This document shows, in pieces, positions 5,401 to 59,626 of a DNA stretch of 64,000 nt. Positions within the stretch are counted from its first letter, which is position 1. The number at the start of each line of letters is the position of its first letter. The stretch lies in the NCBI GenBank assembly GCA_000004985.1, contig GG738858.1; one strand, given 5' to 3'. Below the pieces are notes generated by a model. It did not search any database, was not told where the DNA came from, and saw only the letters and a program-made list of their open reading frames with translations. The stretch is from Naegleria gruberi (lineage: Eukaryota). A program made the position numbers and the translations under genes.

Positions 5401-5848
5401 TTTGTCTCTACTCTCTCAATATATTTTCCAACAAGTAAATTGGTGCAACGCAATTTTGAGAAGAGTGAATAAAGGATTTCTCTCGAAAAGTGTTGATGTA
5501 TTTTTTTATATGAAAGGCTTCTGGTATGATGAACAGACCAAACAAAAAGAAGGTTTTCCAAATTAGAACGAGTTTAATATTTCAAATATAATTTAAATAA
5601 AATTTAATGATATTTAATAAATATTAATTATTATTATTTTGTTATTATTTACAAGGAAAGTTAACCAATTTTGAAATTATTTACAAAAATAATTCACTGT
5701 AGCGAGATGATGAAAGAAGAGAGCAAACAACAAACCCTAGAATGTAGTTATTACTTCGTTACTAATAAAAACGTTTTTTAAATTGGTGATGATGAATTAT
5801 TAATCAACATCAATTAACGAATATTTAGTGTACTGATGAAGATAAAAA

Positions 5849-22962: not shown

Positions 22963-23067
22963 ATGTTCTTATCGAAGTTTACTGAGATAAAGTAGTGTTT
23001 CTTGAAAACAACAATTGAATAAACTAATAATAGAAAGTATGCTCAAAAAAATTGTCATACTATGGTC
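22963..23067 (+). repeat. Split direct repeat A1 of the retroelement (105 bp)
   Basis: Identical copy at 26999..27103. The gag ATG (23062) lies inside its 3' end. Confidence 0.85.
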
Positions 23068-24189: not shown

Positions 24190-26062
24190 CTCTTCCACTC
24201 CCTCCTTCCAAGGAGGAAGATTACAACAGTTTTGGAAAAAGTGGCAAATCTTCCCCAAAACTGTTGCAGAATGGATAAGAGAGGGTATTCCAATCCATTC
24301 AGAAAAAGAAAAATGGATCGATATTCCACTAAGATCTCATTTTTCAGAAAAGGAAGATTCATGGTTAAAGAGCGAAATCTCAGATTTACTCAAAACCAAT
24401 ATTATAGAAATTGGAAACAAGGACACTGTCATAAATCCGATTCACGTGGTTCCGAAGAAAGGCAAAGACCAGTTTCGTCTAATCCTAGATTTGAGATCCA
24501 TAAATGCTGGTATAAACAACGACTCATTCAAAATGGATCATATTCACAAAACTCTAAAGTTTCTATCAAAAGACATGTTAGGAATCAAAATAGATTTGAT
24601 GAAAGGTTATCATCACGTTCCAGTGAAGGAAACAGATCGAAAGTTATTGGGATTCAGGTACAACGGCCAGATTTACCATTACAAGTGCCTACCATTCGGT
24701 CTGAACATTGCTCCAAGATTATTCTCCAAGATAATGAAGGTCTTAGTTCAAAGATGGAGAGTAAGAGGAATCTCGGTATTCATTTATTTAGACGATATCT
24801 TAGTGGTAAATCATTCAAAAGATCAGTTGATCTTAGACAGAGATATAGTTCTAAAGGATTTAGAAGAGTTTGGATTCCTCATTCAAAAAGACAAATGTTG
24901 TTTAAATCCAACTCAATTAATAGAATACCTAGGAGTTTTGTTAGACTTTCATCAAGGTTTGGTAAAAATTCCAGAAGACAAAAGGATTACAGCTTTAGAA
25001 TTCATAGAGGAGCTACTCAATGCTTCCCAGAAACGGCTTTATGTTCCATGCAAGAGAGTTGCCAAGTTCCTAGGAAAGTTGGAATTTCTAACAATTGCCA
25101 ACAAGTACCTTTCACCATTCATGTGTCGTCTTCGAAAGAACATGGTTTCAGTAGTATCAGGAAGAGGTTGGCACGCATCAATGCAAATTCACAAAGGCGC
25201 ATTCAAGGATTTATTGATTCTAAGGGAGTTAATTCAAAAGAACGATGGTCATCCGTTCGAATTGGATTGGATTCTCCCAGTGATTGTGAATTCAGATGCA
25301 ACACCTCAAGGTTTCGGCATTCACTCAGGTTCAATCGTTACTGTTGGAAAGTTCAATGGAGAAGAGCACATCAATGTCAAGGAACTAAGAGCCTTACTGC
25401 TTTATTTCAAACAAGCAGACGAATTAAATCTTTATCCAGATTTCACAAATTTCGAATTGAGAGTAGACAACATGGTAGCCGTGGCATATCTAAAGAAGGG
25501 TTATGGATCAAAAGACGATCTCGCAAAGATAGCAAGAGACATCTCAAAGATTCTAATGAGAAGAAATTGGTGGATTTGCAAAGTGATTTACATCCCATCC
25601 AAACAGAATTTCCTAGCAGACAGGTTGAGTCGATTGATGGATTGGGGATCCACCAAGGAACTAATCGAATTAGTCAACCAAGAATTTGGAATACACCATG
25701 TGGACAGATTTGCAACAACGAGTTCGGCAACTACCCTTGTATTCAATTCATGGAAAGAGAACGACGCGTTCAAAAGTCTTTGGGAAAAAGAACTAGTGAG
25801 TTATTGTGTTCCTCCAATAGGATTGATCAGTCAAGCTCTCATTCATCTTATCAAATCCAGATCAATAGCGACATTTGTAATTCCAGAATGGAGCTCCTCG
25901 ATTTGGTGGCCTCTACTCTTAAAGCTATTAAAGAAGAGAAAAAGTATCACAAGAAGGATGCTTTTAATCAAACTATTATCCGAATTATGGATCAAATTCG
26001 AAGGAACGACGTTCATAATTGCTCATCTGGATGGAAACTTATACTTCAAACCAGAGATTTAG
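23906..26062 (+). CDS. Retroelement pol ORF: reverse transcriptase, RNase H, and the DIRS-type C-terminal HVDRFAT..PP..WW domain
   Basis: The RT motif is FIYLDDILVVNHS (YxDD). The RNase H motif is NFLADRLSR. The C-terminal segment has HVDRFATTSSATTLVFNSW..YCVPPIGLI..PEWSSSIWWP. The frame is open from 23906 with a TTG in the track. The first ATG is at ~23951. It overlaps gag by ~280 nt, so expression is by frameshift or internal start. Confidence 0.75.
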   Translation: MKPSSLKKVYKFPLSMLVENSLTDTFLLIVSKLLPKVNFIILEQHIITTKQPSSNKVQRELPRSILRRNRFKRKTIRVKETVVNSKEKIRISQNDSSTPSFQGGRLQQFWKKWQIFPKTVAEWIREGIPIHSEKEKWIDIPLRSHFSEKEDSWLKSEISDLLKTNIIEIGNKDTVINPIHVVPKKGKDQFRLILDLRSINAGINNDSFKMDHIHKTLKFLSKDMLGIKIDLMKGYHHVPVKETDRKLLGFRYNGQIYHYKCLPFGLNIAPRLFSKIMKVLVQRWRVRGISVFIYLDDILVVNHSKDQLILDRDIVLKDLEEFGFLIQKDKCCLNPTQLIEYLGVLLDFHQGLVKIPEDKRITALEFIEELLNASQKRLYVPCKRVAKFLGKLEFLTIANKYLSPFMCRLRKNMVSVVSGRGWHASMQIHKGAFKDLLILRELIQKNDGHPFELDWILPVIVNSDATPQGFGIHSGSIVTVGKFNGEEHINVKELRALLLYFKQADELNLYPDFTNFELRVDNMVAVAYLKKGYGSKDDLAKIARDISKILMRRNWWICKVIYIPSKQNFLADRLSRLMDWGSTKELIELVNQEFGIHHVDRFATTSSATTLVFNSWKENDAFKSLWEKELVSYCVPPIGLISQALIHLIKSRSIATFVIPEWSSSIWWPLLLKLLKKRKSITRRMLLIKLLSELWIKFEGTTFIIAHLDGNLYFKPEI

Positions 26063-26967
26063 GGATGTTGGTTTCGATTAAGGAAGAAACCTTCAAACTT
26101 TACACTAGAAACTATAATGGTTTCTTATGGTTTATTACTGCATTCAATATTTCAATGGATGACCCTTATGCTATTGAGTATTATGCAGCTTATCTTACAA
26201 TTCAAGGTCAAACATCTCGTGTTGAAGCCTTGAGACCATCCCTTCAATTTTGGGCCAATATTGAGAGAAGAGTTTTTCCAATTTCATGGTCTTATGATAA
26301 GATTAAAAGAGGAATTACTCTTATTTGGTCCTTGATTGATAGAAAAGCTTTGAAACGTGATCCAATTTTCTATCATCATATTGAAGGTTTCATTCAGAGA
26401 AAAGATCATTATGATCCTTTCATTTTCAAACTCACTAGTGCCATGTTAGTCATTGGTTTCAGACTTTTCGCTAGACCAGGTGAATTAGCTAGACTCAAGT
26501 GGGGTTATGTTACAAAGCTTAGAAATGGTAACATCAAATTAGATCTCAGTGGTCACAAAACAGATTTCTTTCTACTAGAAAAGCCGATTACTATTGACAA
26601 GCATCTTGAAAATCCTTCAGTGTGTCCAGTGAAATTGCTTTTTGATTACATAGACACTGTACAGCATTTCAAAAAAGCAGATTCACCATTGTTTTCATTG
26701 CAGGACAATATTTTCTTCAACACTGAAGATGTTTCTCAACTTATCAAGAATGCTATGTTCTCTGTTGATTCAGAAATCACTGTTTCTGGTCACAGTTTAC
26801 GTATTGGTGCAACTACTGAGAGTATTATCAAGGGAATTCCTACTCAGGATATTATTATGGGGACTAGACATAAGGATGTGAAATCTTTACAACCTTATCA
26901 AAGACAAGAAGCTCTTGCAGCTCGCCACTTGTCTACTACTCTCCTTTCTCGGGACAATATCCATTAG
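24232..26967 (+). CDS. Retroelement ORF with a C-terminal tyrosine recombinase domain (~26063..26967); its N-terminal 1.8 kb is an overprinted open frame over pol
   Basis: The C-terminal 300 aa contain ARPGELARL, GHSLRIGATT (HxxR) and a downstream Tyr, as in DIRS/Ngaro YRs. The upstream part is a 600-codon stop-free frame overlapping the RT frame. It translates as R/S/K-rich low complexity. Confidence 0.55.
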   Translation: MEKVANLPQNCCRMDKRGYSNPFRKRKMDRYSTKISFFRKGRFMVKERNLRFTQNQYYRNWKQGHCHKSDSRGSEERQRPVSSNPRFEIHKCWYKQRLIQNGSYSQNSKVSIKRHVRNQNRFDERLSSRSSEGNRSKVIGIQVQRPDLPLQVPTIRSEHCSKIILQDNEGLSSKMESKRNLGIHLFRRYLSGKSFKRSVDLRQRYSSKGFRRVWIPHSKRQMLFKSNSINRIPRSFVRLSSRFGKNSRRQKDYSFRIHRGATQCFPETALCSMQESCQVPRKVGISNNCQQVPFTIHVSSSKEHGFSSIRKRLARINANSQRRIQGFIDSKGVNSKERWSSVRIGLDSPSDCEFRCNTSRFRHSLRFNRYCWKVQWRRAHQCQGTKSLTALFQTSRRIKSLSRFHKFRIESRQHGSRGISKEGLWIKRRSRKDSKRHLKDSNEKKLVDLQSDLHPIQTEFPSRQVESIDGLGIHQGTNRISQPRIWNTPCGQICNNEFGNYPCIQFMERERRVQKSLGKRTSELLCSSNRIDQSSSHSSYQIQINSDICNSRMELLDLVASTLKAIKEEKKYHKKDAFNQTIIRIMDQIRRNDVHNCSSGWKLILQTRDLGMLVSIKEETFKLYTRNYNGFLWFITAFNISMDDPYAIEYYAAYLTIQGQTSRVEALRPSLQFWANIERRVFPISWSYDKIKRGITLIWSLIDRKALKRDPIFYHHIEGFIQRKDHYDPFIFKLTSAMLVIGFRLFARPGELARLKWGYVTKLRNGNIKLDLSGHKTDFFLLEKPITIDKHLENPSVCPVKLLFDYIDTVQHFKKADSPLFSLQDNIFFNTEDVSQLIKNAMFSVDSEITVSGHSLRIGATTESIIKGIPTQDIIMGTRHKDVKSLQPYQRQEALAARHLSTTLLSRDNIH

Positions 26968-47663: not shown

Positions 47664-48611
47664 TTAGTATACGCATTCTTTCAATGATTTTCCATATTTA
47701 CGCAATTGATTAAAGATTCTAATCAATTGTTCACAATCTTCAATCTTTGGCAATTGATTTCCAGTTTCAAAAGTTGCCGTAGTTTTCTTGGCATCACCAA
47801 CCTCCTCACTGTCCATAATCTTTCCAAAATATTCTCTACTCTGCATCAATTTATCTTCCCATTTGTCTGCGAATGAGCTCACTTCTTTACTTTTTAGGCA
47901 AGAGTTCATGGCCACAGGGATAGCCACACTGCATCCAACTGCCATGGCCACACCAACTCCAGCCACAATAGGAACTCCCACAAAAGCACCAATAAATGTA
48001 GTAATTGCAGCAATTCCCAATCCAACTAACCCAACCAAGGACACAATTCCCAAAATAATGCATGCCCAAAAGTATTTCTTTGCTTTGGCTCTCAGAATAT
48101 TCTCAATATGATTCACAGAAGATTCAAGAGTGCTTCTATACCGTGGATGTGTAATCAGTTTCAAATGATCATGAATTACTGTCATTCTCTTCACATAGGA
48201 TTCCTGGTTGACTTGGTTGAAAATGTCCTTAAATAGCTCAACACCCATTTCACCAATTTCAATAAGGAAATTTCCATGTAACAATATAGCATAAATAGCT
48301 TCCCTAAATGATTCTCTTTCACTTTCTTTCAGAAACAAGTAACAATCCTTAATGCATTTACTCATTTCTTGCTCAGTCGATGAAAAATCTTGTTTTTCCA
48401 TTTCGTCTGCAATTTCTTTCAAATCTTTCTTGTCGTCGTTGTTGTCATTATGAATTGGCTTGTTCTCATTGCTCAGGTCTATATTTTGCCAGGTTTCAAT
48501 GTAGACGTAATCGTCCAAGATGTCAAAACAATCGACAATGTCAAGGCAAGTTTGTTGAGTTTCTTCTGGTTTCTGATTGGAACTATCTTTCTTTGTGTGC
48601 CGTTGACCCAT
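47664..48611 (-). CDS. Hypothetical 315-aa protein: MGQRHT N-myristoylation motif, helical domain, C-terminal Gly/Ala-rich (GxxxG glycine-zipper) TM hairpin
   Basis: The TM hairpin region reads ILGIVSLVGLVGLGIAAITTFIGAFVGVPIVAGVGVAMAVGCSVAIPV. It is a paralog of 49947..50894, with identical length. Confidence 0.55.
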   Translation of the reverse strand: MGQRHTKKDSSNQKPEETQQTCLDIVDCFDILDDYVYIETWQNIDLSNENKPIHNDNNDDKKDLKEIADEMEKQDFSSTEQEMSKCIKDCYLFLKESERESFREAIYAILLHGNFLIEIGEMGVELFKDIFNQVNQESYVKRMTVIHDHLKLITHPRYRSTLESSVNHIENILRAKAKKYFWACIILGIVSLVGLVGLGIAAITTFIGAFVGVPIVAGVGVAMAVGCSVAIPVAMNSCLKSKEVSSFADKWEDKLMQSREYFGKIMDSEEVGDAKKTTATFETGNQLPKIEDCEQLIRIFNQLRKYGKSLKECVY

Positions 48612-48968
48612 TTACTTGAATTGCCGTTTTTTTTGAAAATATTAATGGAGTTGTGGCACAGATATTTATTCGAAACGTGAATTGACAATTGATTTTCTCT
48701 CAATCACTTGTTTGTCTCAAACTTGTAAATTTCTGCTACGATAGAAGGAGGTACATTAATTCTACTCCTATCCTTAAATGACAAGATGTTGGAATGTGCT
48801 AAAAAACGTGATCATTCTTTACAATTTTAACAAGATTCGAAACTTTCCATTGGGTAAAGACTAAATATAAAAAGACTGCAGCTCCACAAATTACCAAGTT
48901 ATCTCCAACCTCTTGAAATATTGAAATTTTGAATCGATTCAATTCTATCTTAAATATTGTAAAAAAAA

Positions 48969-49904
48969 ATGAGTAAACGAAACAGACAAGATTTCGAATA
49001 TATTAAATTAATTACCAATTCGGAGGAAATATTCACGGAAGAGAAAGCAAAAGCTATGAAACTGCACCACCAACAACACGAAGATAATGACATATTTTCC
49101 GATGATATTTGCTTTGAAATAATTTCCATGCTTGATGATTCGTGGTTTATTCTAAATAATTGCACTTTAATTTCAAAACAATTCTGTCAGGTGATCAAGG
49201 AACGCTCTAAACTAGTTATTCAATTTAAAAAACCATTGACAGAGAGACGAGTTGAATTATTAAGGAAAAGTCAATTTATGAATTGTATTGTTAATGTTAA
49301 ATTTAATGAAATGTTGTTGGAATTGAGAGAAAATATCAAATTTATAAGTGAAATGAAACAATTAACATCACTTGATGTTTCTGACAATGAAATTGGAAAT
49401 GTAGGAGCTAAACATATAAGTGAAATGAAACAATTAACATCACTTAATATATGTAATAATCGAATTGGTGATGAAGGAGCTAAATTCATAAGCGAAATGC
49501 AACAATTAACATTACTTGATATTTCTGATAATCATATTGGTGATAAGGGAGTTAAATTTATAAGTGAAATGAAACAATTGACATCATTCAATATTTCTGA
49601 TGATCTAATTGGTAATGTAGGAGCCAAATCTATAAGTGAAATGCAACAATTAACATCACTTGATGTTTCTGATAATCATATTGGTGATAGTGGAGTAAAA
49701 TTCATCAGTGAAATGAAACAATTAACATCACTCAATATTGCTATCAATCGAGTTGGTGATGAAGGAGCCAAACTCATAAGTGAAATGAAACAATTAAGAT
49801 CACTTAATATTTCTGACAATGAACTTGGTGATGAAGGAGTCAAATTCATAAGTGAAATGAAACAATTAAGATCAAATTGTTTGGGTATTGTACAGCAGAA
49901 TTGA
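48969..49904 (+). CDS. F-box-like / RNI-type leucine-rich-repeat protein
   Basis: ATG at 48969. The N-terminus has an F-box-like motif (IFSDDICFEIISMLDDSWF). The LRR part consists of eight near-identical 24-aa repeats ISEMKQLTSL(D/N)(V/I)SDNxIGDxGAKF. Confidence 0.6.
   Translation: MSKRNRQDFEYIKLITNSEEIFTEEKAKAMKLHHQQHEDNDIFSDDICFEIISMLDDSWFILNNCTLISKQFCQVIKERSKLVIQFKKPLTERRVELLRKSQFMNCIVNVKFNEMLLELRENIKFISEMKQLTSLDVSDNEIGNVGAKHISEMKQLTSLNICNNRIGDEGAKFISEMQQLTLLDISDNHIGDKGVKFISEMKQLTSFNISDDLIGNVGAKSISEMQQLTSLDVSDNHIGDSGVKFISEMKQLTSLNIAINRVGDEGAKLISEMKQLRSLNISDNELGDEGVKFISEMKQLRSNCLGIVQQN
49345..49880 (+). repeat. 72-bp-period tandem coding repeat (about 7.5 units) inside the LRR gene
   Basis: Units such as aagtgaaatgaaacaattaacatcacttgatgtttctgacaatgaaattggaaatgtaggagctaaacatat are nearly identical to each other at the DNA level. 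Confidence 0.8.
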
Positions 49905-49946
49905 AAGATTGTTCAACAAATTATTTTCCAAAATGATTTAATTATT

Positions 49947-50894
49947 CTAAATGACACATTCTTTCAATGCTGTTCCATACTTGCTCAATTGATAAAAGAT
50001 ATTAATCAAGTGTTCACATTCTTCAATCTTTGGCAACTTGTTGGCATTTTCATAATCCTTGGTGGTCTTTTCAGCTCTGGTAAATTCTGAACTTTCCATT
50101 GCATTCTTAAAACATTGTTTGCTTTCCATCAATTTATCTTCCCAATTGCCTGCGAATGAACTGACTTCAGTGGCTTCCATGCAAGAGTTCATGACCACAG
50201 GAATGGCCACACTGCATCCAACTGCCATGACCACACCAACTCCAGCCACAATAGGAACACCCACAAAGGCACCAATCACTGTTGTAATTGCAGCAATTCC
50301 CAAACCAACCAAACCAACCATGGACACAACTCCCAAAATAATACTTGCCCAAAAGTATTTCTTTGCTTTGGCTCTCAGAATATTCTCCATATGTTTAATG
50401 GAAGTTTCAAGTTTAGTTAAATATTTGGCATTGTCAAAGTAATCTTCCCAAAACTTGTAAATTGCATTCATTCTCTTTTCATATGATCCTTGGTTGACTT
50501 GATTTAAAATATCAGTAAATAGTTCAACTCCCAATTTACCAACTTTAATAAGGTGATTGCCATGGAGAACGATATTTTCAATTGCCTTGTAAAATGGTTC
50601 TCTCTCACTTGGTTTTAGAAACAGATAACAATCTTGAACACATTTTTGGATTTCGTTTTGAGTTTCAAAAATGTCAGTTTTTTGCAATTCTTTGGAAATT
50701 TCCTTCAAATCTTTCTTGTTTTCTTTCAATTCAATATTTTGCCAATAGTTTTCTATATAAACTCGATTCTCAATCATGTCAAAACAATCAACAATGTCAA
50801 TACTCGTTGAAGAATCTGTTTCTTGAGCAAGTTGCTTGAGATTGAGAGATTGGTGAAGGCCTGTGTCCTTCTTTGTGGTTTGGCGTTGACCCAT
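49947..50894 (-). CDS. Paralog of 47664..48611 (MGQRQT N-myristoylation motif plus a glycine-zipper TM hairpin)
   Basis: Same 315-aa length and collinear similarity throughout. The TM block is nearly identical to its paralog (GLVGLGIAAITTVIGAFVGVPIVAGVGVVMAVGCSVAIPV). Confidence 0.55.
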   Translation of the reverse strand: MGQRQTTKKDTGLHQSLNLKQLAQETDSSTSIDIVDCFDMIENRVYIENYWQNIELKENKKDLKEISKELQKTDIFETQNEIQKCVQDCYLFLKPSEREPFYKAIENIVLHGNHLIKVGKLGVELFTDILNQVNQGSYEKRMNAIYKFWEDYFDNAKYLTKLETSIKHMENILRAKAKKYFWASIILGVVSMVGLVGLGIAAITTVIGAFVGVPIVAGVGVVMAVGCSVAIPVVMNSCMEATEVSSFAGNWEDKLMESKQCFKNAMESSEFTRAEKTTKDYENANKLPKIEECEHLINIFYQLSKYGTALKECVI

Positions 50895-50910: not shown

Positions 50911-50965
50911 AAACGTGAGTTTTGTTAGAAACGTGAAACTCAAAACATATTTATTCGAAACGTGA
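50911..50965. promoter_or_regulatory. Three AAACGTGA octamers (50911-18, 50929-36, 50958-65) in the 5' flank of 49947..50894; one copy at 48673-80 upstream of the paralog
   Basis: ttaAAACGTGAgtttt, agAAACGTGAaact, tattcgAAACGTGAtg; and tattcgAAACGTGAattg at 48667..48684. Confidence 0.4.
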
Positions 50966-51337
50966 TGCGTGTGGTGTTGACCATCATGTCAATTTCTGGT
51001 ACGATAGTAGGTTTATTACAAATTTCTTGTTTTTAATTGGTGAGATGTAGGAGAATATTGTTTTCTTTCTCATCGACTGTGTAACCATTCAATTCGATTT
51101 GCTCCTTAGATCCACCAATATCATTATATGTAATTCCGCAGTCCTAATTGTAACACTGGCATCAATTTTTGGAGGGAGTGGAATACGAATTTGATATTTT
51201 GTACGATCAACACCAATACGTACCAGTTGCCATGAAAGGTATGAGCCTGAGCGAATTCTTCTCTCGATTATTTAACATTGAGTTTTCATAACAAATAAAA
51301 CTCAAATCAGAACTGTTTACTAATATTATTTTGAAAA

Positions 51338-53574
51338 TTAAAGTATTTTCTTTTCGAGTTGTTTGAGAATATTTTCGAGTAACTCAACAATTTTTGTGGT
51401 TCTGTTTTTGCACTTGGTTTCATCGAAATCTGAGAGATTAGTCAATTTCTTGACTTCGTTGTTGATATTCAATGGTTCCTTATTCAAGTATTTCAATCTG
51501 TTTTCATCTGTGGTATCCTTTGTGAATGATTTACCACATAGAGTAAAGTTACCAATTTGGAGATAGCAATTATCCATCTTCTTAGCCAATAATGGTTTGA
51601 TATTGCATAACTTGAGATTACGAGGATATTGCAAGTCGAAATTAGATGCATTCGGATCAGAAAGGAAGTCTTCAATGATTGGTAAAACAGTTGAGAAAAT
51701 CTTTTTAAGCTCATTACTTTGTTTCTTCTTTGATGGGGCAGTGCTGTCATTATTGGCTAATCTAATGATCTTCTTGCTCCATTGTGAATAATTGGATTCC
51801 TCACTGTCATCACTTGCCTTTTTGCCTCCCTTTTTCTTGCTCTTTGTCTTGGTCAATATGGTTGTGAGTTCCTTAAAATCAACAACTTTGTTGTTCAAAA
51901 GATTACTGATCTCAGCCATCATGTAAGAGAACTTGACCTTGGCAAAGTCACACAAGCAAACTTGGAGTACGTGATTGTGCCAAATTGCAATTAATTGCAA
52001 TACATCTGCTTCTTCAACCTTGGAACTGACATTATAGGTGAGAAAGTGTTGGCCATGTTCCTTGCAATGTGCAATAGCAATAAGAGTTGCTAGGACTATA
52101 TCTGAGGCCACTTTTTGTGCCTTTGGGAGGTAATTTTCAGCAATGTGGTGTGTTCTGCTGATCATCTTGTTAATAAGGTGATTCTTCTCATTATTAGTGG
52201 AGAATACAGGACGATTTGCTGAACTCTTTGATTGATGACCAATGAAAATAGGAGTCATGTAATTGTTCATGAAAGTTTCACCAAGATTTTCAATATTGAC
52301 AGTTGTCTTCATGTGGGAGGCAATTTGGTCAAGAAGTTTCAAATATTCTCTATTGCTAACATTCACATTCTTTGTTGGGTGTAGCAATTGATGAATGTTT
52401 TCAAGAATATTTGAGAAATCTTCGCCAACTTCTTGATACATGTGATTCCAAGAATCAACCATTTCTTGATTCTTTTGGTGATTGTGGCAACCAAATAATC
52501 TTCCAAAATCAAGCTTGAGTTTGTCCATTGGTGACAAATCCTTTCCTCTCAAATTCAAAGTACCAAAGATTGCTAGTTCATTAGCATGTTCTGGAACTGT
52601 AATGGTAACAACAATACAATTGTGACTCAAGAAGTGAATGAAATCAACCATTTCTTCTTGTTTCTTGAAAAGCTTTTTGATTTTAAGGATGGAATGCAAG
52701 AAGTTTTTGGCACAATTCATGGCAGAAGTGGAAGTAATCTCCTTTGCTTCTTCGAGCTTGGTGATTATTTCATCAACCTTGCTCTTCTTAAAGTCACCCT
52801 CGTCCATACTGGCCTTCTTTAAAATGTTAGCAAATCCCTTCTCTTCGACAATGTACTTTTTAAAGAATGTCTTTTCCTTTCCTGCTACACCTTCTTCATC
52901 ATTGCAAACCTCAATTCTTGCTTGACCTTTCAGAGTTCCCTTGTGAATCTTCAAGTAAACTTTGCTAATTGTCTCAAAATTTTCTTCATACTTTTTCTTA
53001 TTGATACATTCTCTGAGGGCAGAGTAAAGAATGGAGAGAGAGGTCAATCTTTGTTGACCATCTATTACTTGTTGTCTGTTACCTGCCTTTAGGACAATGG
53101 AGCCAATAAAGTAGCTGCTCTCTGGTTCATTCTTGTTATACTCATTGTAGACATCATCAAGAAGGTCCATAATGTTGTCGATCTCCCAAGCATAAGGACG
53201 TTGGTATTCAGGAATAGAATAGCACAATTCAAAAAGATTGTCAATTGCTCTATTGTTGGTGGTCAACTCCCAAGCTCTTCTTTCTGAGGCAACTATCTTT
53301 GGAGGAACAGGTGGACTGAATGTGAGTGGAGAATCTGTTGAAAATGGAAGAGAGGTATCACTCTTAGAGCTTGATGGAGTTGCTGGTTGTGAAGAAGAGG
53401 AAGGAGTACTGGCGATAATGGTTTGTTCCTTCTTGGTCTTCTTCTTGTCTTTCTTTGGGGTAATGTCAGAGCAGTCTCTGGTGTTTTTCTCTTCTTGTCT
53501 ACCCCCTTTGACCACTCGGGAACCCCTGCTTCACATTCAACTTCATGAACTATTTCACTATTGAAACAGTTCAT
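51338..53574 (-). CDS. DUF262 (GmrSD-N / ParB-like nuclease fold) domain protein with a low-complexity N-region, 2 exons
   Basis: The DUF262 motifs are IPEYQRPYAW ... IDGQQRLTSL and a downstream LNLRGKDL block. The main frame has no ATG before the domain; the track start is GTG. Exon 1 is 53574..53503 (ATG, MNCFNSEIVHEVECEAGVPEWSKG). The 50-nt intron is 53502..53453 (gtagac...ccaaag). Exon 2 is 53452..51338, beginning KDKKKTKKEQ. Phase 0 on both sides. Confidence 0.6.
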
Positions 53575-54296
53575 GTGTTGAAATAAAACAAGAGTCTTTA
53601 AAAGAATGTAGCAGATGTACTGGCACCTATATAACGTGAATTGGTATTTATCACCAACCCTCTACAACATAGACACGAAATTCTATTGATCGTCGGGAAC
53701 GGGTCGAGCTGTCTTTTAGGACCTAACTAGACCAGCAATAGAAGATCTTGATATCGGTTTAATACCTGGGTTATTTTACACCCTGAAGTTTTGTCTTCAA
53801 TAAATTCAACAATAAATTGTGGTTTGCTCTCATTTTCCATTATCTTGTGTTTAATCACTTGAATGAAAACCAAGCAAGGTGCTAAGAGTTTGGTGAATAA
53901 ACGTCTAGAATATGTGAAAAAATACTATATTATTTAAATCAATGAACAATATCTTACTATCTTATTTAAAAGTTTAAATCAATAAATAAGATTTCATTAT
54001 TTTGTTTTGGAAAAATAGCTCAAAAATATTGGCAACACAATCAACAAATTCTTAGAGTTTTCACATCTTAAGATGTAACTCCAAGAAATTTTCATCATCA
54101 TGTGAATAATAGTAATTTTTGGAATTAATCCTTCGCCATGATTTGGAAATTATTTTATTATTCAAGTTGGTAAACCATCATCGGAACAACTACCAATCAT
54201 CACCATGTAATAATATTATTTGTGGAAAAATCTGAAAATAGTGAAATTCAATATTTTCACTAAAATCATCATTACCAGATTCATATAATAATTGAA

Positions 54297-54740
54297 TTAG
54301 TGAAATCTCGGATTTCCATACCTTTCAAAAGCTACCTTCACAGCAACAACCTTTCCTTGATCTAACTTGTACAAACAAGGATAAATTCCATCTCCAATTG
54401 CAGTGGAAGAGTAAACACCAAATGGAAACATGGTGCAATCATCATTTTGGTTTTCAGTCTTGATTTGCAGAATTGCATCCTTCCACTCTAAACTTTCTTG
54501 ATTGGTATTCTTGAACAAATTATTATCTTCATACTTGTCTCCATCAATAAATCCAATTCCATGATCCAAACCTACAATTGCAGAAACATGCCAACCATGC
54601 TTGATTTCCATGTCAAAATTATCAAAATCCTCATCAAATATATGTCCAGGAGTTTCCCAATCAGTTCTGATGTTAGAATTGTCCAAACTATGTTCATAAT
54701 TGTAAATTAAAACTTGTCTGACACCACCTGATAATTTCAA
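54297..54740 (-). CDS. Hypothetical protein (GDGIYP motif; possibly DUF4241-like)
   Basis: The track start is TTG. It abuts 54737..56425 in another frame. It may be a separate small gene or the frameshifted tail of the upstream ORF. Confidence 0.3.
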   Translation of the reverse strand: MKLSGGVRQVLIYNYEHSLDNSNIRTDWETPGHIFDEDFDNFDMEIKHGWHVSAIVGLDHGIGFIDGDKYEDNNLFKNTNQESLEWKDAILQIKTENQNDDCTMFPFGVYSSTAIGDGIYPCLYKLDQGKVVAVKVAFERYGNPRFH

Positions 54741-56425
54741 TTGCTTAACTTTCCAATTCCATTTTTAACATTCTCAATGAGTGAACTTTCTGAATCTCTA
54801 TCTGTTGTGAAATCGATGACCTTAATCTTACCAGATTCGATCAACAATTCCTCTCGTTTCATGTTGATAATCCACTCATCCTTCAAATCAACTCTTGGTT
54901 TTTGTGGCAAATCATTTCCACTTCTTGGTTCAACAATTCCAAAAGCTTCTTCATTCTTTTTGGTAAAGAACCTATTTGGATTTTGTGGCAACTTTTCAAT
55001 TCGATACGAATGATATTTGTTTGAATAGACTGCAACGTGAACTTTACCATCAATAACATCCAAAACATATCCAAATTCATACTCATTATTTCCTCTATAA
55101 ATTGGAGCTCCTAAATGATTGGAAAACTCCTTCACGTCAATTTCTTGATAATTTTCACTACACAATTCTGGAAACATTTCTTTACATTTGATTCCACAAA
55201 CGATTTGAAAATCACACATTCTTGCACTCTCCTTAATTTTGTAAATATGTTCTCCTCTAAAGTTTCTAGCACTGCTAATTTCCTTCTTGGTGAGAAGTGA
55301 AATTTTCGGATGACTTTCCATTTGGTGAGTTTTAAAAGCAAATTCCTTTTGAATTTCTTCCTTACTCCAATAAGGGAGCCACTTGATTGAATTTAAATCA
55401 ACCTTAACTACTTCTTCACATTTCAAATCAATATAGAATAGACATGACTTTAAATCTTCACTCCACAATATTGTTGTGTCTCCATTTTTTCCATAATAAG
55501 AAGTTGCTGATTTCTGATACTTTCCTTCGTGAATATTAGAAAGAGAACCAGGTCTATAACAATAAACTTGTTCTGAACCAAAGAAAATGATTCCAGAATT
55601 TTGTGTTGGAATAATTGAGTTAGGAATAATATCATTAATCCATGGTAAGTGATTGTCGGCTTTCAAAGATTTCATATCCTTATCAAAGAATATTTCAATT
55701 AATCTATGATCTGCTGAAAAGAATGATCTAACAGAATTACCTTCCTTATACGGAATATTCGAATGTGATTCGGAATATGTTGAGCTTGATTCAAAACTAA
55801 AAAACATGCTTTCGTCTGATAGAGCAAACTGTTCGAAATCTCTTGTTTCTCTATTGAAAAGGAAAAAGTTACAACCATAGAATAAACCATTCAATGAATA
55901 TTTTCTATCCGAAACATCCTCACATGGAATATAACAGTGAAACAATTGCTTTAGAATTTTTCGATCGAGAGTTATACTCTTCTGAGGTTGCTTACCAGAT
56001 AAATCAACCAATTGATAAATATAATCCTTCTCTGATGTTGGTGTGGCCATGAGAACGTGGCCATCGAAAATTCCCACAAAATGATCAAATTCTAAAGTAG
56101 GTTTGGACAATGGTTCGATATTCCTATCCTTCATCATGGACAATTTTCCATCAATCATCATAACTGCACTAACAACCTTCGGATCCAACACATTTCTCTC
56201 TGTGTCCATGCAAATAGATGGATTTTCCTCGCATTTTACAATCTTCCATTCCTTCAGAATTTTGGAAGAGCCAACCTCGATGAGGGTACTCATCTTACGA
56301 TATCTCTTCATCAGAAAGTAGGATGAACAGTATGGGAGTGCCACATTGGGATGAGACACATCGTAGGACATTTTTTTTAATGTGGATCTGTCAACTCCTG
56401 AATTACCATAATTATTAAGTCTCAT
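54737..56425 (-). CDS. Hypothetical 562-aa protein
   Basis: ATG confirmed at 56425. A long clean ORF with no domain recognized. Confidence 0.45.
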   Translation of the reverse strand: MRLNNYGNSGVDRSTLKKMSYDVSHPNVALPYCSSYFLMKRYRKMSTLIEVGSSKILKEWKIVKCEENPSICMDTERNVLDPKVVSAVMMIDGKLSMMKDRNIEPLSKPTLEFDHFVGIFDGHVLMATPTSEKDYIYQLVDLSGKQPQKSITLDRKILKQLFHCYIPCEDVSDRKYSLNGLFYGCNFFLFNRETRDFEQFALSDESMFFSFESSSTYSESHSNIPYKEGNSVRSFFSADHRLIEIFFDKDMKSLKADNHLPWINDIIPNSIIPTQNSGIIFFGSEQVYCYRPGSLSNIHEGKYQKSATSYYGKNGDTTILWSEDLKSCLFYIDLKCEEVVKVDLNSIKWLPYWSKEEIQKEFAFKTHQMESHPKISLLTKKEISSARNFRGEHIYKIKESARMCDFQIVCGIKCKEMFPELCSENYQEIDVKEFSNHLGAPIYRGNNEYEFGYVLDVIDGKVHVAVYSNKYHSYRIEKLPQNPNRFFTKKNEEAFGIVEPRSGNDLPQKPRVDLKDEWIINMKREELLIESGKIKVIDFTTDRDSESSLIENVKNGIGKLSN

Positions 56426-56455: not shown

Positions 56456-59400
56456 TCAAACTTCTAATAAACTGTTAAAATCAATTGCCCTTCGGAATAT
56501 CTTGGAACCACTTTCAACAATTCTATTATTCTTATTCATTCGTTTTAGGAATTCAGTATTGTATCTTAATGAATAGTGAGCGTAACAAAGTGCTTCAATA
56601 TTGATATCCATTGCCTTTTCAATAAAATCTTCATCGGAAATAATTTCATAGGATGCAAGTTTAAGTGAAGTAACATCACTTTGTACAGCTTTCAATACTA
56701 TTTCAGGATCGTTTCTCATATCAAATGATGCATAACAGAAAGAATTAAACGATTTCCCCTGACCAGAAGCATACATTACACACTCCTTATCCCCAAGGAA
56801 TTTGTTGGATGCATACTGAAGTGCTTCTTCATGGTTTTGAACACATTTCAGGACGACATTTCTGTTATATGCAAACTTATGAGGCACATACTGTAAAACC
56901 TTTCCGTTAACTCCAGCACATTCTAAAATAAACTCTTCCTCATGCTGTAACTCTTCACTGGCAAACAGGAATGCAATAGCATCAGATTTGATAGCTTTTA
57001 ACATAATTTCTCTATCATTTTTGAATTCATGTTTCAACTCGTTAGACAAGTACATAATTGATCGACCATTAAGTTCCAGTGATTTTAAAGCAATTTCTCT
57101 GTCTTCCCTTAATGTAATTGGTATAAAAAGTATATCAAATTGCTTAGGTTCAATTTCTAAAATAAAGGTCCTATCTAGTCTAAGTCTATTCGAAACATAC
57201 ATAAGATTCATCATCCTAGCATTAACAGCTAAAAGGGCAAATTGTCTATCATCTCTAAAAGTATAATCAAATTCATTAAGAGACTTAATACTTAATGCTA
57301 TGGCAGCCATTTCCTTATTGAGAGGAAATGGGATGTTGAGATGTGGCGGTAACCATTTTCTTAACGCTTCCAACACTTCTCCATCACTTTTCATTTCTCC
57401 AGAGGCATAGCGATAACAGCTTGCTGAATATTTTAATCCTGTTAAAATTAATTCCTTGTCATTTTGCAAATCTTCTGATAGGTAGTTACATCCATGACGA
57501 ATTGCATTTAGAGCAATTTCTCTATCATTTCGCAAATATTTTGGAATATATTGAATCAAATAACCATTAATCCTAGTTAACTTCCTAATAAAATCAATAT
57601 TGTTCCTTAATCTTTCAGACACGTACTCGAAAGATGAAGCATTCTCTGAGAATGCAATTGCTTGCACTATTTCCTCCTCATCTCTGTATTCTTCTGGAAC
57701 ATATTTCAGAGGATGAGTATCATATCTGCAAGCTTCATAAACTATTTCTCTATCTAATTCTGATTCATTGATATTTCTTAAGCTCAATCCGTTTCGTACT
57801 GCAACGATTAACAATTCTCTGTCTTGTTGGAGAGAATGACTGGCGTATTTCAAGTTATTTCCATCTAATTGGACAGCCTCTAATACTATGTCTCTGTCTT
57901 GTTTGTATTCTTGTGGTATTTCTTCAATACTTCCAATTCTTCTTACGTATTCTAATATTAAATCTCTATCTTCCTTCAGACTATATCCCAAAAAGTCAGA
58001 TATATTTGACATTGAATTTCTAATTGCTTTTACAACAAAGTCTCTCGAATTTTTCCAAGATTCAGGAGCATACTCAAAGTAGCATCCGTCTCTACCTATT
58101 AAAAACTCTAGTATCTCCTTATCTGTTTTTAATTCTTCTGATGCATAATTATAATTACCAGTATCATATAAAAGTGCTTCCTGTAACAATGACTTATCAT
58201 TTTGCAATTCCGCTGATGCAAACTTTAGAGCTCCGTAATGTTCTTTTATCGCCAACCTGATTATTTCTCGGTCATTTCTTAACTCGTCGTTCAACGATTC
58301 TAAAATTTTACGATCTTGTAATATATAGTCCAATACTAGTTGTCTACTGTTTTTTAGTTCGCCCTTGCAATGTTCTAAGCATACAGGATCTATTCTAATA
58401 ATTCTCAACTGTCTTTCCTCATTAAGAGAATTGAAATAATCTTTAGAAGTCCACATTGCTGAACTATACTGACATTGAATATCAATTAGTTCATCAACAA
58501 AATCACTATGATTAACTAGAGACGAACCACCATAATCAAGAAAGCTTAATGAATTACCTGCTCCTGAAATGCATTCTAGAACGAATTCACGGTCATGAAT
58601 TAATTCTCGAGCGATTCTACTGGAGAATGCGCTAGAATTAACAGAAGAACCAAGCAATACAAGTTCCTTCACAAAACTTCTATCACTACAGAAGTAACCA
58701 TGATCCACATAATACAAAGCCATTCCATTAGATTTTACAGCCTCCATAACAATCTCTTTGTCTTTCTTCAGTTCTTTTGAAACATCCTTCAAACTGTCTC
58801 CTTTCATTTTTACAATTTGTAAAACAAACTCTCTGTCTGATCTTAATTTTTCAGACGCATACGAAAATGAAAACCCTGAATTTTTAGCAGCTAGTAAAAT
58901 AACCTCTTTGTCATTGGAAAATGTTGGAGCATGCTGGAGAACACACGAATATTTAGAATTCTTGATAGCTTCCATCACTATTTCTCTATCTTTTAAATGT
59001 TCTGGAACATACTCGATAACCAAACCATCTTGTTTCACTGCTTCCAACACAATATCTCTAGAATTTTTCAATTGGGATGAAGCAAATTTTAAACATTTTG
59101 GTTGTTGTTTGATAGCTAATTTCATTAATTCATCATCATTATGAAATTCTGGGAGATGTTCAAATAAAATTTCCTCATCATAATATAAGTTTGATTTCAA
59201 TTTTAACACTTTCAAGATAAATTCTCTTTGGCTTTTCAATTTCTTACCAACAAATTTAATTGCCGAATAATGTTCTCGAAGTGCTACCAAAGCAACAGTT
59301 TCATCATTTTGCAAATCCTCTGATGCATATTCTAATAATTGTCCTTCAATTTTAAGAGTTTTTAAAAAGGCTAATTTGCAATCATTGTCAGGAAATGGAT

Positions 59401-59626
59401 GATCTTGAATATATTCACAAGCTGGAATGTTCTTTCTCTTCTTAAATTGTTGTACATGTTCATAAATCTTGTTGTTTTTAGAAACCCGTTCCTTGCAGAC
59501 TGCCGAAAAATGGTTTGCAAGTAAAATAAAACTCAGAGTTTCGGATGCTGAATTGTTAAATACGACCTGATGGTCATTGGAAGGCAAAAAATTTATCAGC
59601 AAATCTGAGAATGAATCTTTCACCAT
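56456..59626 (-). CDS. 1056-aa protein built of ~21 tandem ~48-aa repeats (DUF4116-like: D(R/K)E(I/F)VL.AV(K/R).(N/D)G.AL.YAS.EL(K/R).D)
   Basis: ATG at 59626. Example repeat units: DREIVLEAVKQDGLVIEYVPEHLKDREIVMEAIKNSKYS... and DREFVLQIVKMKGDSLKDVSKELKKDKEIVMEAVKSNGMALYYV... Confidence 0.55.
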   Translation of the reverse strand: MVKDSFSDLLINFLPSNDHQVVFNNSASETLSFILLANHFSAVCKERVSKNNKIYEHVQQFKKRKNIPACEYIQDHPFPDNDCKLAFLKTLKIEGQLLEYASEDLQNDETVALVALREHYSAIKFVGKKLKSQREFILKVLKLKSNLYYDEEILFEHLPEFHNDDELMKLAIKQQPKCLKFASSQLKNSRDIVLEAVKQDGLVIEYVPEHLKDREIVMEAIKNSKYSCVLQHAPTFSNDKEVILLAAKNSGFSFSYASEKLRSDREFVLQIVKMKGDSLKDVSKELKKDKEIVMEAVKSNGMALYYVDHGYFCSDRSFVKELVLLGSSVNSSAFSSRIARELIHDREFVLECISGAGNSLSFLDYGGSSLVNHSDFVDELIDIQCQYSSAMWTSKDYFNSLNEERQLRIIRIDPVCLEHCKGELKNSRQLVLDYILQDRKILESLNDELRNDREIIRLAIKEHYGALKFASAELQNDKSLLQEALLYDTGNYNYASEELKTDKEILEFLIGRDGCYFEYAPESWKNSRDFVVKAIRNSMSNISDFLGYSLKEDRDLILEYVRRIGSIEEIPQEYKQDRDIVLEAVQLDGNNLKYASHSLQQDRELLIVAVRNGLSLRNINESELDREIVYEACRYDTHPLKYVPEEYRDEEEIVQAIAFSENASSFEYVSERLRNNIDFIRKLTRINGYLIQYIPKYLRNDREIALNAIRHGCNYLSEDLQNDKELILTGLKYSASCYRYASGEMKSDGEVLEALRKWLPPHLNIPFPLNKEMAAIALSIKSLNEFDYTFRDDRQFALLAVNARMMNLMYVSNRLRLDRTFILEIEPKQFDILFIPITLREDREIALKSLELNGRSIMYLSNELKHEFKNDREIMLKAIKSDAIAFLFASEELQHEEEFILECAGVNGKVLQYVPHKFAYNRNVVLKCVQNHEEALQYASNKFLGDKECVMYASGQGKSFNSFCYASFDMRNDPEIVLKAVQSDVTSLKLASYEIISDEDFIEKAMDINIEALCYAHYSLRYNTEFLKRMNKNNRIVESGSKIFRRAIDFNSLLEV

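What the first reader, a model, noticed from the sequence alone, without database searches (positions are those of the whole stretch)
51338..53574. Eukaryotic, intron-containing gene with a bacterial-type DUF262 (GmrSD/ParB-like nuclease) domain
IPEYQRPYAW...IDGQQRLTSL is the signature of DUF262, the N-terminal NTP-binding domain of GmrSD-type type IV restriction enzymes and anti-phage systems. Here it is embedded in a gene with a 50-nt spliceosomal intron. The start codon is only reachable through that splice. A eukaryote-style K/S/P-rich linker follows. The result is a domesticated defence-type domain of unknown eukaryotic role. A DUF1524-type HNH nuclease motif is not evident in the C-terminal half.
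Basis: partly seen in the sequence, partly recalled or inferred. Interest (0 to 1): 0.55.

Follow-up and report, generated by a model that had tools for sequence, protein, structure and literature searches.

The report
Nuclease-dead GmrSD homologue in Naegleria
This is the Naegleria gruberi copy of a bacterial restriction-enzyme-like (GmrSD) gene that the amoeba lineage acquired long ago and whose DNA-cutting residues are gone; the proposed "intron" is really a one-base frameshift near the gene's start.

Summary
The DUF262 observation is real: Pfam GmrSD_N scores E=4e-32, with intact QRPYAW and DGQQR motifs. The window is Naegleria gruberi NEG-M. The gene is not a lone domain. It is collinear over its full length with bacterial GmrSD-type enzymes (HEC-06, SspE, BrxU, DndI-like). 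It has a DUF262 NTPase domain, a helical linker and a DUF1524-like C-terminal fold. That fold has lost the catalytic Glu-His and the distal Asn in all five Naegleria sequences found.

The 50-nt intron is not supported. In contigs 98.6% identical to the window, the same bases are in-frame coding sequence, and the ORF starts at its own ATG (MPAEKKDKKRKTPETSSDITPKK). The window has a 1-nt deletion at about 53473. Its 5' flank differs upstream of 53500. The donor is GTAGAC and the GC content is 44%, unlike six clear introns in the window. Intact homologues in other Naegleria species are single-exon.

The reference annotation (EFC46581/D2V9F5, 1399 aa) avoids the missing start by joining the gene to its upstream neighbour across a 796-nt intron. 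That model is probably chimeric.

The family shows turnover. There are two paralogous lineages, a degenerate copy in N. lovaniensis and a different frameshift in the sister strain. Recent purifying selection is still evident (omega about 0.15).

Interest is moderate. This is a eukaryotic, nuclease-dead variant of a known defence family, and no function was tested.

The parts
51338..53515 (-). Open frame of 725 codons plus stop (TAA 51338..51340). This is the body of the GmrSD-like gene. It has no in-frame ATG before codon 115.
   Evidence: It is 41% identical over 88% of its length to N. lovaniensis XP_044546273.
52514..53236 (-). DUF262 / GmrSD_N (ParB/Srx-like NTPase) domain, aa 94-334.
   Evidence: Pfam PF03235 E=4.3e-32. 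PADLOC HEC-06 8.6e-41. 50% identity to N. lovaniensis in this part.
53186..53215 (-). IPEYQRPYAW motif.
   Evidence: Invariant I, P, Y, Q, R, P, Y and W in 46 aligned sequences. Coordinates.
53048..53062 (-). DGQQR motif (nucleotide hydrolysis motif of GmrSD-like proteins).
   Evidence: Invariant in 46 sequences. Q79A and R80A in HEC-06 abolish defence (bioRxiv 10.1101/2024.01.29.577857).
51731..52513 (-). Alpha-helical linker, aa 335-595. It includes a K/S-rich disordered loop at aa 559-573.
   Evidence: AlphaFold model: helices 346-555, pLDDT mostly 75-92. Collinear with bacterial linkers.
51341..51730 (-). Degenerate DUF1524-like (beta-beta-alpha) C-terminal domain, aa 596-725.
51593..51610 (-). 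LCNIKP. It aligns with bacterial IEHVLP, so the catalytic Glu-His is replaced by Cys-Asn.
   Evidence: MAFFT alignments of 9 and 46 sequences. hhalign and HMMER place it the same way.
51545..51556 (-). IGNF. This is the retained structural Asn (N656) of the HNH-like motif.
   Evidence: N656 is invariant in 46 sequences.
53276..53467 (-). Disordered K/S/P/T-rich N-terminal region with the basic cluster PKKDKKKTKK (NLS-like; inferred).
   Evidence: pLDDT 27-35. Homologues have similar basic, S-rich N-termini.
53453..53502 (-). It is ancestral coding sequence that spans a frameshift.
   Evidence: Coding and in frame in L086 and L087. Donor GTAGAC, GC 0.44.
53473..53473 (-). Frameshift site. The window reads GAGAC-T-GCTCTGAC where the sister strains read GAGAC-AA-GCTCTGAC (L086) or GAGAA-AA-GCTCTGAC (L087).
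53500..53501 (-). End of homology with the sister strain. Upstream of it, the ancestral ATG plus five codons (MPAEKK) and the ancestral promoter region are absent.
   Evidence: blastn of L087 and L086 against the window stops at 53500. Alignment.
53572..53574 (-). ATG in the ancestral reading frame (...VDKKRKTPET). It opens a 93-codon ORF because of the frameshift.
53633..53643 (+). AACGTGAATTG (CAATTCACGTT on the gene strand), a promoter-like motif 59 nt upstream of ATG 53574.
   Evidence: A second exact copy lies at 48674, 63 nt upstream of the ATG of EFC46579. The TCACGTT core lies upstream of 4 genes.
53526..54321 (-). The 796-nt 'intron' of reference model EFC46581 (AG|GTATGG ... GAAGCAG|G). 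It joins the upstream gene to this ORF.
   Evidence: Mapping of P0128 onto the window.

Best explanation
The locus is the N. gruberi NEG-M member of a Naegleria gene family descended from a bacterial GmrSD-type enzyme (type IV restriction / HEC-06-, SspE-, BrxU-like). I infer that it was acquired by horizontal transfer before the Naegleria species diverged.

The whole architecture was kept:
- a DUF262 (ParB/Srx-like) NTPase domain with intact QRxYxW and DGQQR motifs;
- a long helical linker;
- a C-terminal DUF1524-like fold.

In every Naegleria sequence the HNH catalytic Glu-His and the distal Asn are replaced. Only the structural Asn (IGNF/Y) remains. A disordered, basic, S/P-rich N-terminus was added.

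Inferred mechanism: the protein binds and hydrolyses a nucleotide with the DUF262 domain. It contacts DNA through the helical and dead-nuclease parts, probably in the nucleus. It therefore acts as a nucleotide-controlled DNA or modified-DNA sensor or binder that does not cut by itself.

The gene contains no intron. In NEG-M the 5' end is damaged. The ancestral ATG and promoter are replaced upstream of 53500, and a 1-nt deletion at about 53473 puts the new in-frame ATG (53574) out of register with the 704-codon body. I lean to a real, very recent lesion. On that reading this copy is a fresh pseudogene in a family prone to decay. A single-base assembly error cannot be excluded.
For: Family and architecture:
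- Pfam GmrSD_N E=4.3e-32.
- PADLOC HEC-06 8.6e-41, plus Orf5 and SspE models.
- Full-length collinear alignment with 43 bacterial DUF262+DUF1524 proteins, with invariant DUF262 motifs and N656.
- Foldseek of the whole model: SspE 1.2e-7, BrxU 1.1e-3.

Dead nuclease:
- Bacterial IEHVLPQ aligns with LCNIKPL (window), IVKIFRE (P0001), LEQIMPK (P0002), LVQIRKK (P0134) and IIKLYSG (P0135).
- There is no GmrSD_C hit at E<=10.
- EH-to-AA mutants of HEC-06 and BrxU lose defence.

Eukaryotic and old:
- Neighbours are exact N. gruberi proteins.
- Homologues lie on 0.44-0.9 Mb contigs of N. lovaniensis and N. fowleri.
- There are two paralogous lineages.
- The nearest bacterial proteins are <=29% identical.

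No intron:
- L086 and L087 are 98.6% identical and read ATG CCT GCT GAA AAG AAA GAC AAG AAG AGA AAA ACA CCA GAG ACA AGC TCT GAC ATT ACC CCA AAG through the 'intron'.
- There is a 1-nt gap in the window at 53473-53476.
- Six clear introns in the window have GTA[AT]G[TA] donors and 9-35% GC.
- P0001 and P0002 are single-exon genes.

Recent constraint:
- The window and L087 differ by 10 synonymous and 6 non-synonymous changes. Omega is about 0.15, binomial p=2e-4.

Decay-prone family:
- The sister strain has a 5-nt deletion that creates a stop at 52791.
- The N. lovaniensis lineage-B copy has a stop at codon 16 and a replaced core segment.
Against: - No transcript or read data were available. The 1-nt deletion could be an error in the reference assembly, or it could be bypassed in some way I cannot see.
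- The downstream 704 codons are perfectly open and recently constrained, which fits an intact gene as well as a very young pseudogene.
- Sequence evidence for DUF1524 homology of the C-terminus taken alone is weak (hhalign prob 0.8%, E=0.073).
- The C-terminal structural model was built from an alignment that contained bacterial DUF1524 sequences. This may bias it towards that fold.
- The functional role (DNA sensor, nuclear location) is inference from bacterial relatives.
- ParB/Srx-type domains have themselves been proposed to have nuclease activity (PMC4619093).
- The donor lineage and the direction of transfer were not resolved by a phylogeny.
Confidence: 0.65

Rival explanations
1. The NEG-M gene is intact and the reference assembly lacks one base near 53473. 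Translation would start at ATG 53574 and give a 745-aa protein (MNCFNSEIVHEVECEAGVPEWSKGVDKKRKTPETxSDITPKK...) with a lineage-specific N-terminal extension, driven by a new promoter.
For: - ATG 53574 is in the ancestral frame of DKKRKTPET.
- A promoter-like CAATTCACGTT motif sits 59 nt upstream, as in neighbouring genes.
- The body is open for 704 codons and under purifying selection.
Against: - The difference from the sister strains is a substitution plus a deletion (AA to T), not a simple homopolymer miscount.
- No independent NEG-M sequence with the corrected frame is in the protein collection.
- Other copies of the family carry real lesions.
Confidence: 0.3
2. One reading: a functional two-exon gene. 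Exon 1 is 53574..53503, a 50-nt spliceosomal intron lies at 53502..53453, and exon 2 runs from 53452.
For: - GT..AG borders are present.
- The length of 50 nt is within the 38-63 nt range seen in the window, and it restores the frame.
- A CTGAC branch-like site lies 14 nt before the AG.
Against: - The donor GTAGAC lacks the +4 to +6 consensus found in 6 of 6 clear introns.
- GC is 0.44 and purines are 0.64, which is coding-like.
- 47 of 50 bases are identical to in-frame coding sequence of the sister strains.
- The splice would delete the conserved SDITPK.
- Intact homologues are intronless.
Confidence: 0.06
3. The reference annotation is right. The ORF is the last exon of a 1399-aa fusion protein (EFC46581) whose N-terminal 670 aa come from the upstream gene. 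The two parts are joined across a 796-nt intron (54321..53526).
For: - The donor AG|GTATGG is close to the local consensus, and the acceptor is CAG.
- The model is in NCBI and UniProt.
Against: - The intron would be more than 10 times longer than any clear intron in the window. It would contain the upstream gene's stop codon and a promoter-like motif.
- The junction translates the ancestral DKKRKTPET out of frame as GRQEEKNTRDC.
- The upstream gene family is stand-alone in contig L003 (656 aa) and in paralogue EFC41695 (674 aa).
- The GmrSD-like gene is stand-alone with its own ATG in the sister strain, N. lovaniensis and N. fowleri.
Confidence: 0.06
4. The family still cuts nucleic acid. It would use either substitute residues in the C-terminal domain or a ParB/Srx-type nuclease activity of DUF262. 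On this reading it is a working restriction-like defence enzyme against giant viruses or mobile DNA.
For: - A nuclease activity of ParB/Srx-fold proteins (Osa, sulfiredoxin) is discussed for GmrS (PMC4619093).
- The family shows fast divergence and birth-and-death turnover, as defence genes do.
- Giant viruses infect Naegleria (PMC11043551).
Against: - The E-H dyad and the distal Asn are absent in 5 of 5 Naegleria sequences, and no conserved His appears nearby.
- The equivalent mutations abolish defence in HEC-06 and BrxU.
Confidence: 0.15
5. Bacterial contamination or a very recent transfer into the assembly.
For: The closest non-Naegleria relatives are all prokaryotic-type proteins.
Against: - The gene is embedded in a 782-kb N. 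gruberi scaffold between exact N. gruberi genes.
- Its GC content matches that of its surroundings.
- Homologues occur in two other Naegleria genomes and in environmental contigs.
- Identity to bacterial proteins is only 20-29%.
Confidence: 0.01

Closest known systems
HEC-06 (GmrSD-like anti-phage protein embedded in Hma systems; PADLOC PDLC04157)
   Same: - It is the best profile match (8.6e-41).
- It has DUF262 with DGQQR, a helical linker, and the same domain order and size class.
   Different: - HEC-06 has an EHICP nuclease motif that is essential for defence. The Naegleria proteins have CN, VK, EQ, VQ or IK at that position.
- The match covers only profile positions 10-307 of 558.
- The Naegleria proteins have a eukaryotic N-terminal extension and internal insertions.
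- There is no defence-island context.
SspE and DndI (phosphorothioate-sensing DUF262-DUF1524 nickases; PDB 6jiv, 7drr, 7dri, 9jfl)
   Same: - They are also sequence hits (9jfl 5e-12, 6jiv 4.9e-8).
   Different: - Identity is only 10-15%.
- No partner Ssp or Dnd modification genes were seen beside the gene.
- The nuclease residues are absent.
- Phosphorothioate DNA is not known in Naegleria (my knowledge; not tested here).
GmrSD / BrxU type IV restriction enzymes (PDB 7p9k)
   Different: - The DHIYP-type catalytic motif is absent.
- The host is a eukaryote.
- Activity on modified cytosines was not tested.
Database entries D2V9F5_NAEGR (N. gruberi), XP_044546273 (N. lovaniensis), XP_044565909 (N. 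fowleri)
   Same: The first is this very gene. The other two are its homologues. All are already auto-annotated as DUF262 / GmrSD N-terminal domain-containing proteins.
   Different: - The N. gruberi entry is a 1399-aa model fused to the upstream gene.
- None of the entries notes the degenerate DUF1524 domain.
- No paper in the searched library links GmrSD or DUF262 with Naegleria beyond an incidental co-mention.

Membership tests
GmrSD family (DUF262-linker-DUF1524 proteins) | N-terminal DUF262 / ParB-Srx-like domain with (I/V)PxxQRxYxW and DGQQR motifs. | tested here: met
   PF03235 E=4.3e-32. Both motifs are invariant across 46 sequences.
GmrSD family (DUF262-linker-DUF1524 proteins) | Alpha-helical linker of about 200-400 residues between the two domains (PMC4619093). 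| tested here: met
   Predicted helices span aa 346-555. The region is collinear with bacterial linkers.
GmrSD family (DUF262-linker-DUF1524 proteins) | C-terminal DUF1524 domain recognisable by sequence profile (PF07510). | tested here: not met
   There is no hit at E<=10 in any of the three full-length Naegleria proteins or in the isolated C-terminus. hhalign prob 0.8%.
GmrSD family (DUF262-linker-DUF1524 proteins) | C-terminal beta-beta-alpha (His-Me finger) fold of DUF1524. | tested here: inconclusive
   [not shown]
GmrSD family (DUF262-linker-DUF1524 proteins) | HNH catalytic residues (D/E)-H ... N ... N. | tested here: not met
   E-H is replaced in 5 of 5 Naegleria sequences. The distal N is replaced. 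Only the middle N (N656) is kept.
Type IV (modification-dependent) restriction enzyme | NTP-dependent cleavage of modified DNA. | not testable with these tools
   This needs a biochemical assay. The sequence predicts loss of HNH cleavage.
Spliceosomal intron of N. gruberi (for 53502..53453) | GT..AG borders and a length typical for the genome. | tested here: met
   GT at 53502 and AG at 53453; 50 nt, against 38-63 nt locally.
Spliceosomal intron of N. gruberi (for 53502..53453) | Donor consensus GTA[AT]G[TA] and AT-rich body, as in the clear introns of the same window. | tested here: not met
   Donor GTAGAC. GC is 0.44, against 0.09-0.35.
Spliceosomal intron of N. gruberi (for 53502..53453) | The sequence is non-coding, i.e. 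not part of the reading frame in close relatives. | tested here: not met
   It is in-frame coding in L086 and L087 (DKKRKTPETSSDITPK).
Spliceosomal intron of N. gruberi (for 53502..53453) | Absent from mature mRNA. | not testable with these tools
   No transcript data are available.
Horizontally acquired prokaryotic gene fixed in a eukaryote | Embedded in a eukaryotic chromosome, present in several species of the lineage, and with its nearest outgroup relatives prokaryotic. | tested here: met
   No formal phylogeny was made, and the taxonomy of most outgroup hits is unknown.

The most novel reading that the evidence does not exclude
Naegleria has kept a nuclease-dead GmrSD derivative through its whole radiation. 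It may serve as a nucleotide-switched reader of modified or foreign DNA, for example Tet-generated 5hmC or giant-virus and transposon DNA, and signal to effectors encoded elsewhere. That would be a eukaryotic immune or epigenetic sensor built from a type IV restriction enzyme. The repeated, independent inactivation of copies (NEG-M, sister strain, N. lovaniensis B) would then reflect the cost-benefit turnover typical of immune genes.
Probability: 0.15. Interest if true: 0.7.

Novelty: new variant of a known kind. Interest (0 to 1): 0.35.

Why it matters
If the family is functional, it adds a case to the growing list of bacterial defence modules reused by eukaryotes. The cutting module was disabled, while the nucleotide-binding sensor stayed under selection. 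That points to a switch from restriction to sensing.

There are two practical outcomes:
- The reference protein D2V9F5/EFC46581 is very likely a chimera of two genes.
- An 'intron' inferred only because it restores a reading frame can be a frameshift in disguise. Gene models around this locus in N. gruberi, and the matching locus in N. lovaniensis contig PYSW02000037, need correction.

Tried and rejected
- I enumerated all GT..AG introns that link any upstream ATG to the main frame. None has the local donor consensus.
- An upstream exon at ATG 53840 (MENESKPQFIV...) is rejected, because contig L003 has a 2-nt indel inside it.
- A codon-usage log-odds test of the three frames over 53574..53453 was uninformative for such short segments.
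- Exact look-ups of the spliced model, the internal-Met model, the GTG model, two of the four possible one-base-corrected 745-aa proteins (Ser and Cys) and the 93-aa ORF found none of them in the collection.
- Rfam search of 50-56 kb gave only a chance lncRNA hit.
- A search for close relatives in JGI metagenome contigs found nothing.
- Viral contigs hold only distant (25-29%) DUF262 genes, on contigs up to about 90 kb. No close giant-virus relative was seen.
- Synteny among the window, L001, L002 and L084 is absent apart from the gene itself. The shared Exo_endo_phos, F-box and UQ_con Pfam labels near the N. lovaniensis gene are therefore not orthologous neighbours.
- Flanking inverted and direct repeats around the gene are weak and AT-rich, and I do not take them as transposon ends.
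- The context of the best outgroup hit, P0136, is a 6-kb contig of unknown origin and was uninformative.
Full report
**What is at the coordinates**

On the minus strand an open frame of 725 codons runs from 53515 to the TAA at 51338..51340. Pfam places GmrSD_N (DUF262, PF03235) at aa 94-334 with E=4.3e-32. IPEYQRPYAW is at 53186..53215 and DGQQR at 53048..53062. The frame has no ATG before codon 115, which already lies inside the domain. The nearest upstream ATG (53574) is in another frame and opens a 93-codon ORF.

**Organism**

Four neighbouring ORFs are letter-perfect matches to Naegleria gruberi NEG-M proteins on a 782,252-bp scaffold: EFC46579, EFC46580, EFC46583 and EFC46452. GC is about 33% throughout the window. 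Neighbours encode DUF4116 repeats, F-box/UBC, Myb and LRR proteins. The gene is nuclear and eukaryotic, not contamination.

**What the protein is**

The two best database hits are N. lovaniensis XP_044546273 (720 aa, 41% identity over 88% of the query) and N. fowleri XP_044565909 (736 aa, 32%). All other listed hits are DUF262 proteins at 22-32% identity, and nearly all of them also carry DUF1524.

Alignments with 6 and then 43 bacterial proteins are collinear from end to end. Invariant positions include the QRPYxW and DGQQR motifs, N271, F317/N321/R323/G324/L327/D331/K334 and W356. In the C-terminal part, N656 is also invariant.

PADLOC's best model is HEC-06 (8.6e-41), followed by Orf5 and SspE models. 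These matches stop at profile position about 307 of 558.

An AlphaFold model of the whole protein has mean pLDDT 67. It is good in DUF262 and the helical linker. Its Foldseek matches are SspE (1.2e-7) and BrxU (1.1e-3).

**The C-terminal half**

No GmrSD_C/DUF1524 profile hit is obtained for any Naegleria protein, even at E<=10. An isolated profile-profile comparison is not significant.

The catalytic Glu-His is replaced in all five Naegleria sequences, by CN, VK, EQ, VQ and IK. The distal Asn is also replaced. The structural Asn of IGN(F/Y) is kept. In HEC-06 and BrxU the same E/D-H to Ala changes abolish phage defence, as do changes in DGQQR (bioRxiv 10.1101/2024.01.29.577857).

The family therefore keeps a constrained NTPase module and a nuclease module that should be inactive. 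The domain is still there as a relic.

**The intron**

Six unambiguous introns in this window have donors GTAAGT, GTATGT or GTAAGA. They are 39-63 nt long and have 9-35% GC. The proposed intron starts GTAGAC and has 44% GC and 64% purines.

The decisive evidence came from the cluster that hides the reference protein. Its members P0129 and P0131 come from two assemblies of run ERR1078381 (contigs L087 and L086). These contigs are 98.6% and 97.6% identical to the window, over 53500..51221 (L087, which continues at 98.2% down to 50102) and 53500..52679 (L086). The two proteins begin MPAEKKDKKRKTPE(T/K)SSDITPKKDKKKTKK.

Their DNA reads ATG CCT GCT GAA AAG AAA GAC AAG AAG AGA AAA ACA CCA GAG ACA AGC TCT GAC ATT ACC CCA AAG. 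The 'intron' is therefore ordinary in-frame coding sequence.

The window differs in two ways:
- It reads GAGAC-T-GCTCTGAC instead of GAGAC-AA-GCTCTGAC. This is a net 1-nt deletion at about 53473.
- Homology ends at 53500/53501, so the ancestral ATG, five codons and the upstream region are replaced.

ATG 53574 lies in the ancestral frame (...VDKKRKTPET). The deletion then throws it out of register with the body. A 50-nt 'splice' spanning the deletion restores the frame, which is why it looked convincing. The intact N. lovaniensis and N. fowleri genes are single-exon with their own ATG.

**The reference annotation**

EFC46581/XP_002679325/D2V9F5, named 'DUF262 domain-containing protein', is 1399 aa. 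It maps to three blocks:
- 56371..54787;
- 54748..54322, after a 38-nt GTTCAC..AAG intron;
- 53525..51341, after a 796-nt intron (AG|GTATGG...GCAG|G).

The junction reads the ancestral DKKRKTPET out of frame. The intron would be more than ten times the local norm and would contain a stop codon and a promoter-like motif. Both partner families are stand-alone elsewhere. I consider the model chimeric.

This also explains why no N. gruberi hit appeared in the first homology search. The 1399-aa protein sits in a cluster represented by the upstream gene.

**Is the NEG-M copy alive?**

Between the window and L087 the body (51341..53452) shows 17 substitutions. Ten codons carry synonymous changes and six carry non-synonymous changes. 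Omega is about 0.15, and a binomial test against neutrality gives p=2e-4. The gene was therefore under purifying selection until very recently.

The sister strain nevertheless has its own 5-nt deletion at 52791, which creates GAT TAA and splits the ORF. N. lovaniensis carries a second copy (L084 4150..6086). This copy has a stop at codon 16 and a replaced core segment, and the annotation merged its N-terminal half into a biotin carboxylase model.

I could not obtain independent NEG-M reads. A real recent frameshift (my preference) and a one-base assembly error remain open.

A promoter-like CAATTCACGTT motif sits 59 nt upstream of ATG 53574. It is shared with the promoter region of EFC46579, and its core occurs upstream of four genes. 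This is compatible with an independent transcript starting just upstream.

**Family history**

An exhaustive profile search found two further fragments, P0134 and P0135.
- Lineage A comprises the window gene, N. lovaniensis P0001 and an environmental contig, L085.
- Lineage B comprises N. fowleri P0002 and the degenerate N. lovaniensis copy. That copy is 47% identical to P0002 but only 28-32% identical to P0001.

The flanks are not conserved among the species loci. No close relatives were found in viral contigs or JGI metagenomes.

The loss of the nuclease residues is shared by both lineages, so it predates their split. With bacterial relatives at <=29% identity, an old horizontal acquisition followed by duplication and patchy loss is the simplest reading. 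No formal tree was built.

GmrSD homologues in a few eukaryotic genomes were already noted by Machnicka et al. 2015 (PMC4619093). I found no paper on the Naegleria proteins.

**Mechanism**

By analogy with SspE, BrxU, DndI and HEC-06, the DUF262 domain binds and hydrolyses a nucleotide through DGQQR, and the helical region mediates dimerisation. This step is inferred from motif conservation. The C-terminal fold may still contact DNA but cannot use the HNH chemistry. This step is inferred from the missing residues. The basic, disordered N-terminus (PKKDKKKTKK) suggests nuclear import. This step is also inferred.

My best guess is a nucleotide-controlled DNA or modified-DNA binder that senses rather than cuts. 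Its biological target is unknown. Candidates are giant-virus DNA (Naegleria has a known giant virus, PMC11043551), mobile elements, or Tet-modified host DNA.

**Verdict**

The domain observation is confirmed. The intron is an artefact of a frameshift. The gene is an already auto-annotated, but mis-modelled, member of a small Naegleria family of nuclease-dead GmrSD derivatives. This is moderately interesting as a variant of a known defence family in a eukaryote, and it remains functionally untested.

Noticed in passing
window 23062..26967 (+): This looks like a DIRS-like tyrosine-recombinase retrotransposon. It has three overlapping ORFs (375, 718 and 911 aa). They carry a reverse transcriptase (RVT_1, 4.8e-26), a weak Dam-like methyltransferase hit and a weak phage-integrase hit.
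   Followed up: partly
window 54297..56425 (-) and locus L003: The upstream neighbour gene carries 154 nt (54915..54762) that are absent from the 99.4%-identical contig L003. That contig reads through as one 656-aa ORF. The reference model instead removes a 38-nt GTTCAC..AAG intron (54786..54749). This may be a polymorphic insertion or intron, or another mis-modelled junction.
   Followed up: partly
window 48662..48684, 50918..50965, 53633..53643, and upstream of 21166: A TCACGTT core motif lies 24-71 nt upstream of the ATG of four genes. Nine of its 23 occurrences in the window fall in the roughly 7% of sequence that lies <200 nt upstream of long ORFs. The region upstream of the DUF262 gene and that upstream of EFC46579 share CAATTCACGTT..ATAT..GTGCCA. 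This is a candidate promoter element.
   Followed up: partly
window 47664..48611 (-) and 49947..50894 (-): These are tandem paralogous 315-aa genes (EFC46579 and EFC46580), 71-86% identical in DNA. Each encodes a hydrophobic G/V/A-rich segment. They are separated by an LRR gene built of 72-nt repeats (49265..49946).
   Followed up: no
locus L084 (N. lovaniensis PYSW02000037.1) 3800..6125: This is a second, degenerate GmrSD-like copy. It has a stop after MAPKQTTTPKKKKQT, and about 170 nt of unrelated sequence replaces a core strand. The annotation merges its N-terminal half into a 1107-aa biotin-carboxylase model and calls the C-terminal half a separate 374-aa protein.
   Followed up: yes
loci L086 and L087 (run ERR1078381), equivalent to window 52791: The sister strain's copy of the gene has a 5-nt deletion that creates an in-frame TAA after ...ASMDEGD. 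The ORF is split into 243/244-aa and 484-aa pieces. This lesion is independent of the NEG-M one.
   Followed up: yes
locus L087 1..40: The contig begins with GGGTTCAAATCCCACCTTCTGCA, which resembles the 3' half of a tRNA. ARAGORN calls no tRNA on the truncated sequence. It may explain why the assembly broke upstream of the gene.
   Followed up: partly
window 56456..59626 (-): This 1056-aa protein is made of 22 DUF4116 repeats (E=2.7e-185).
   Followed up: no
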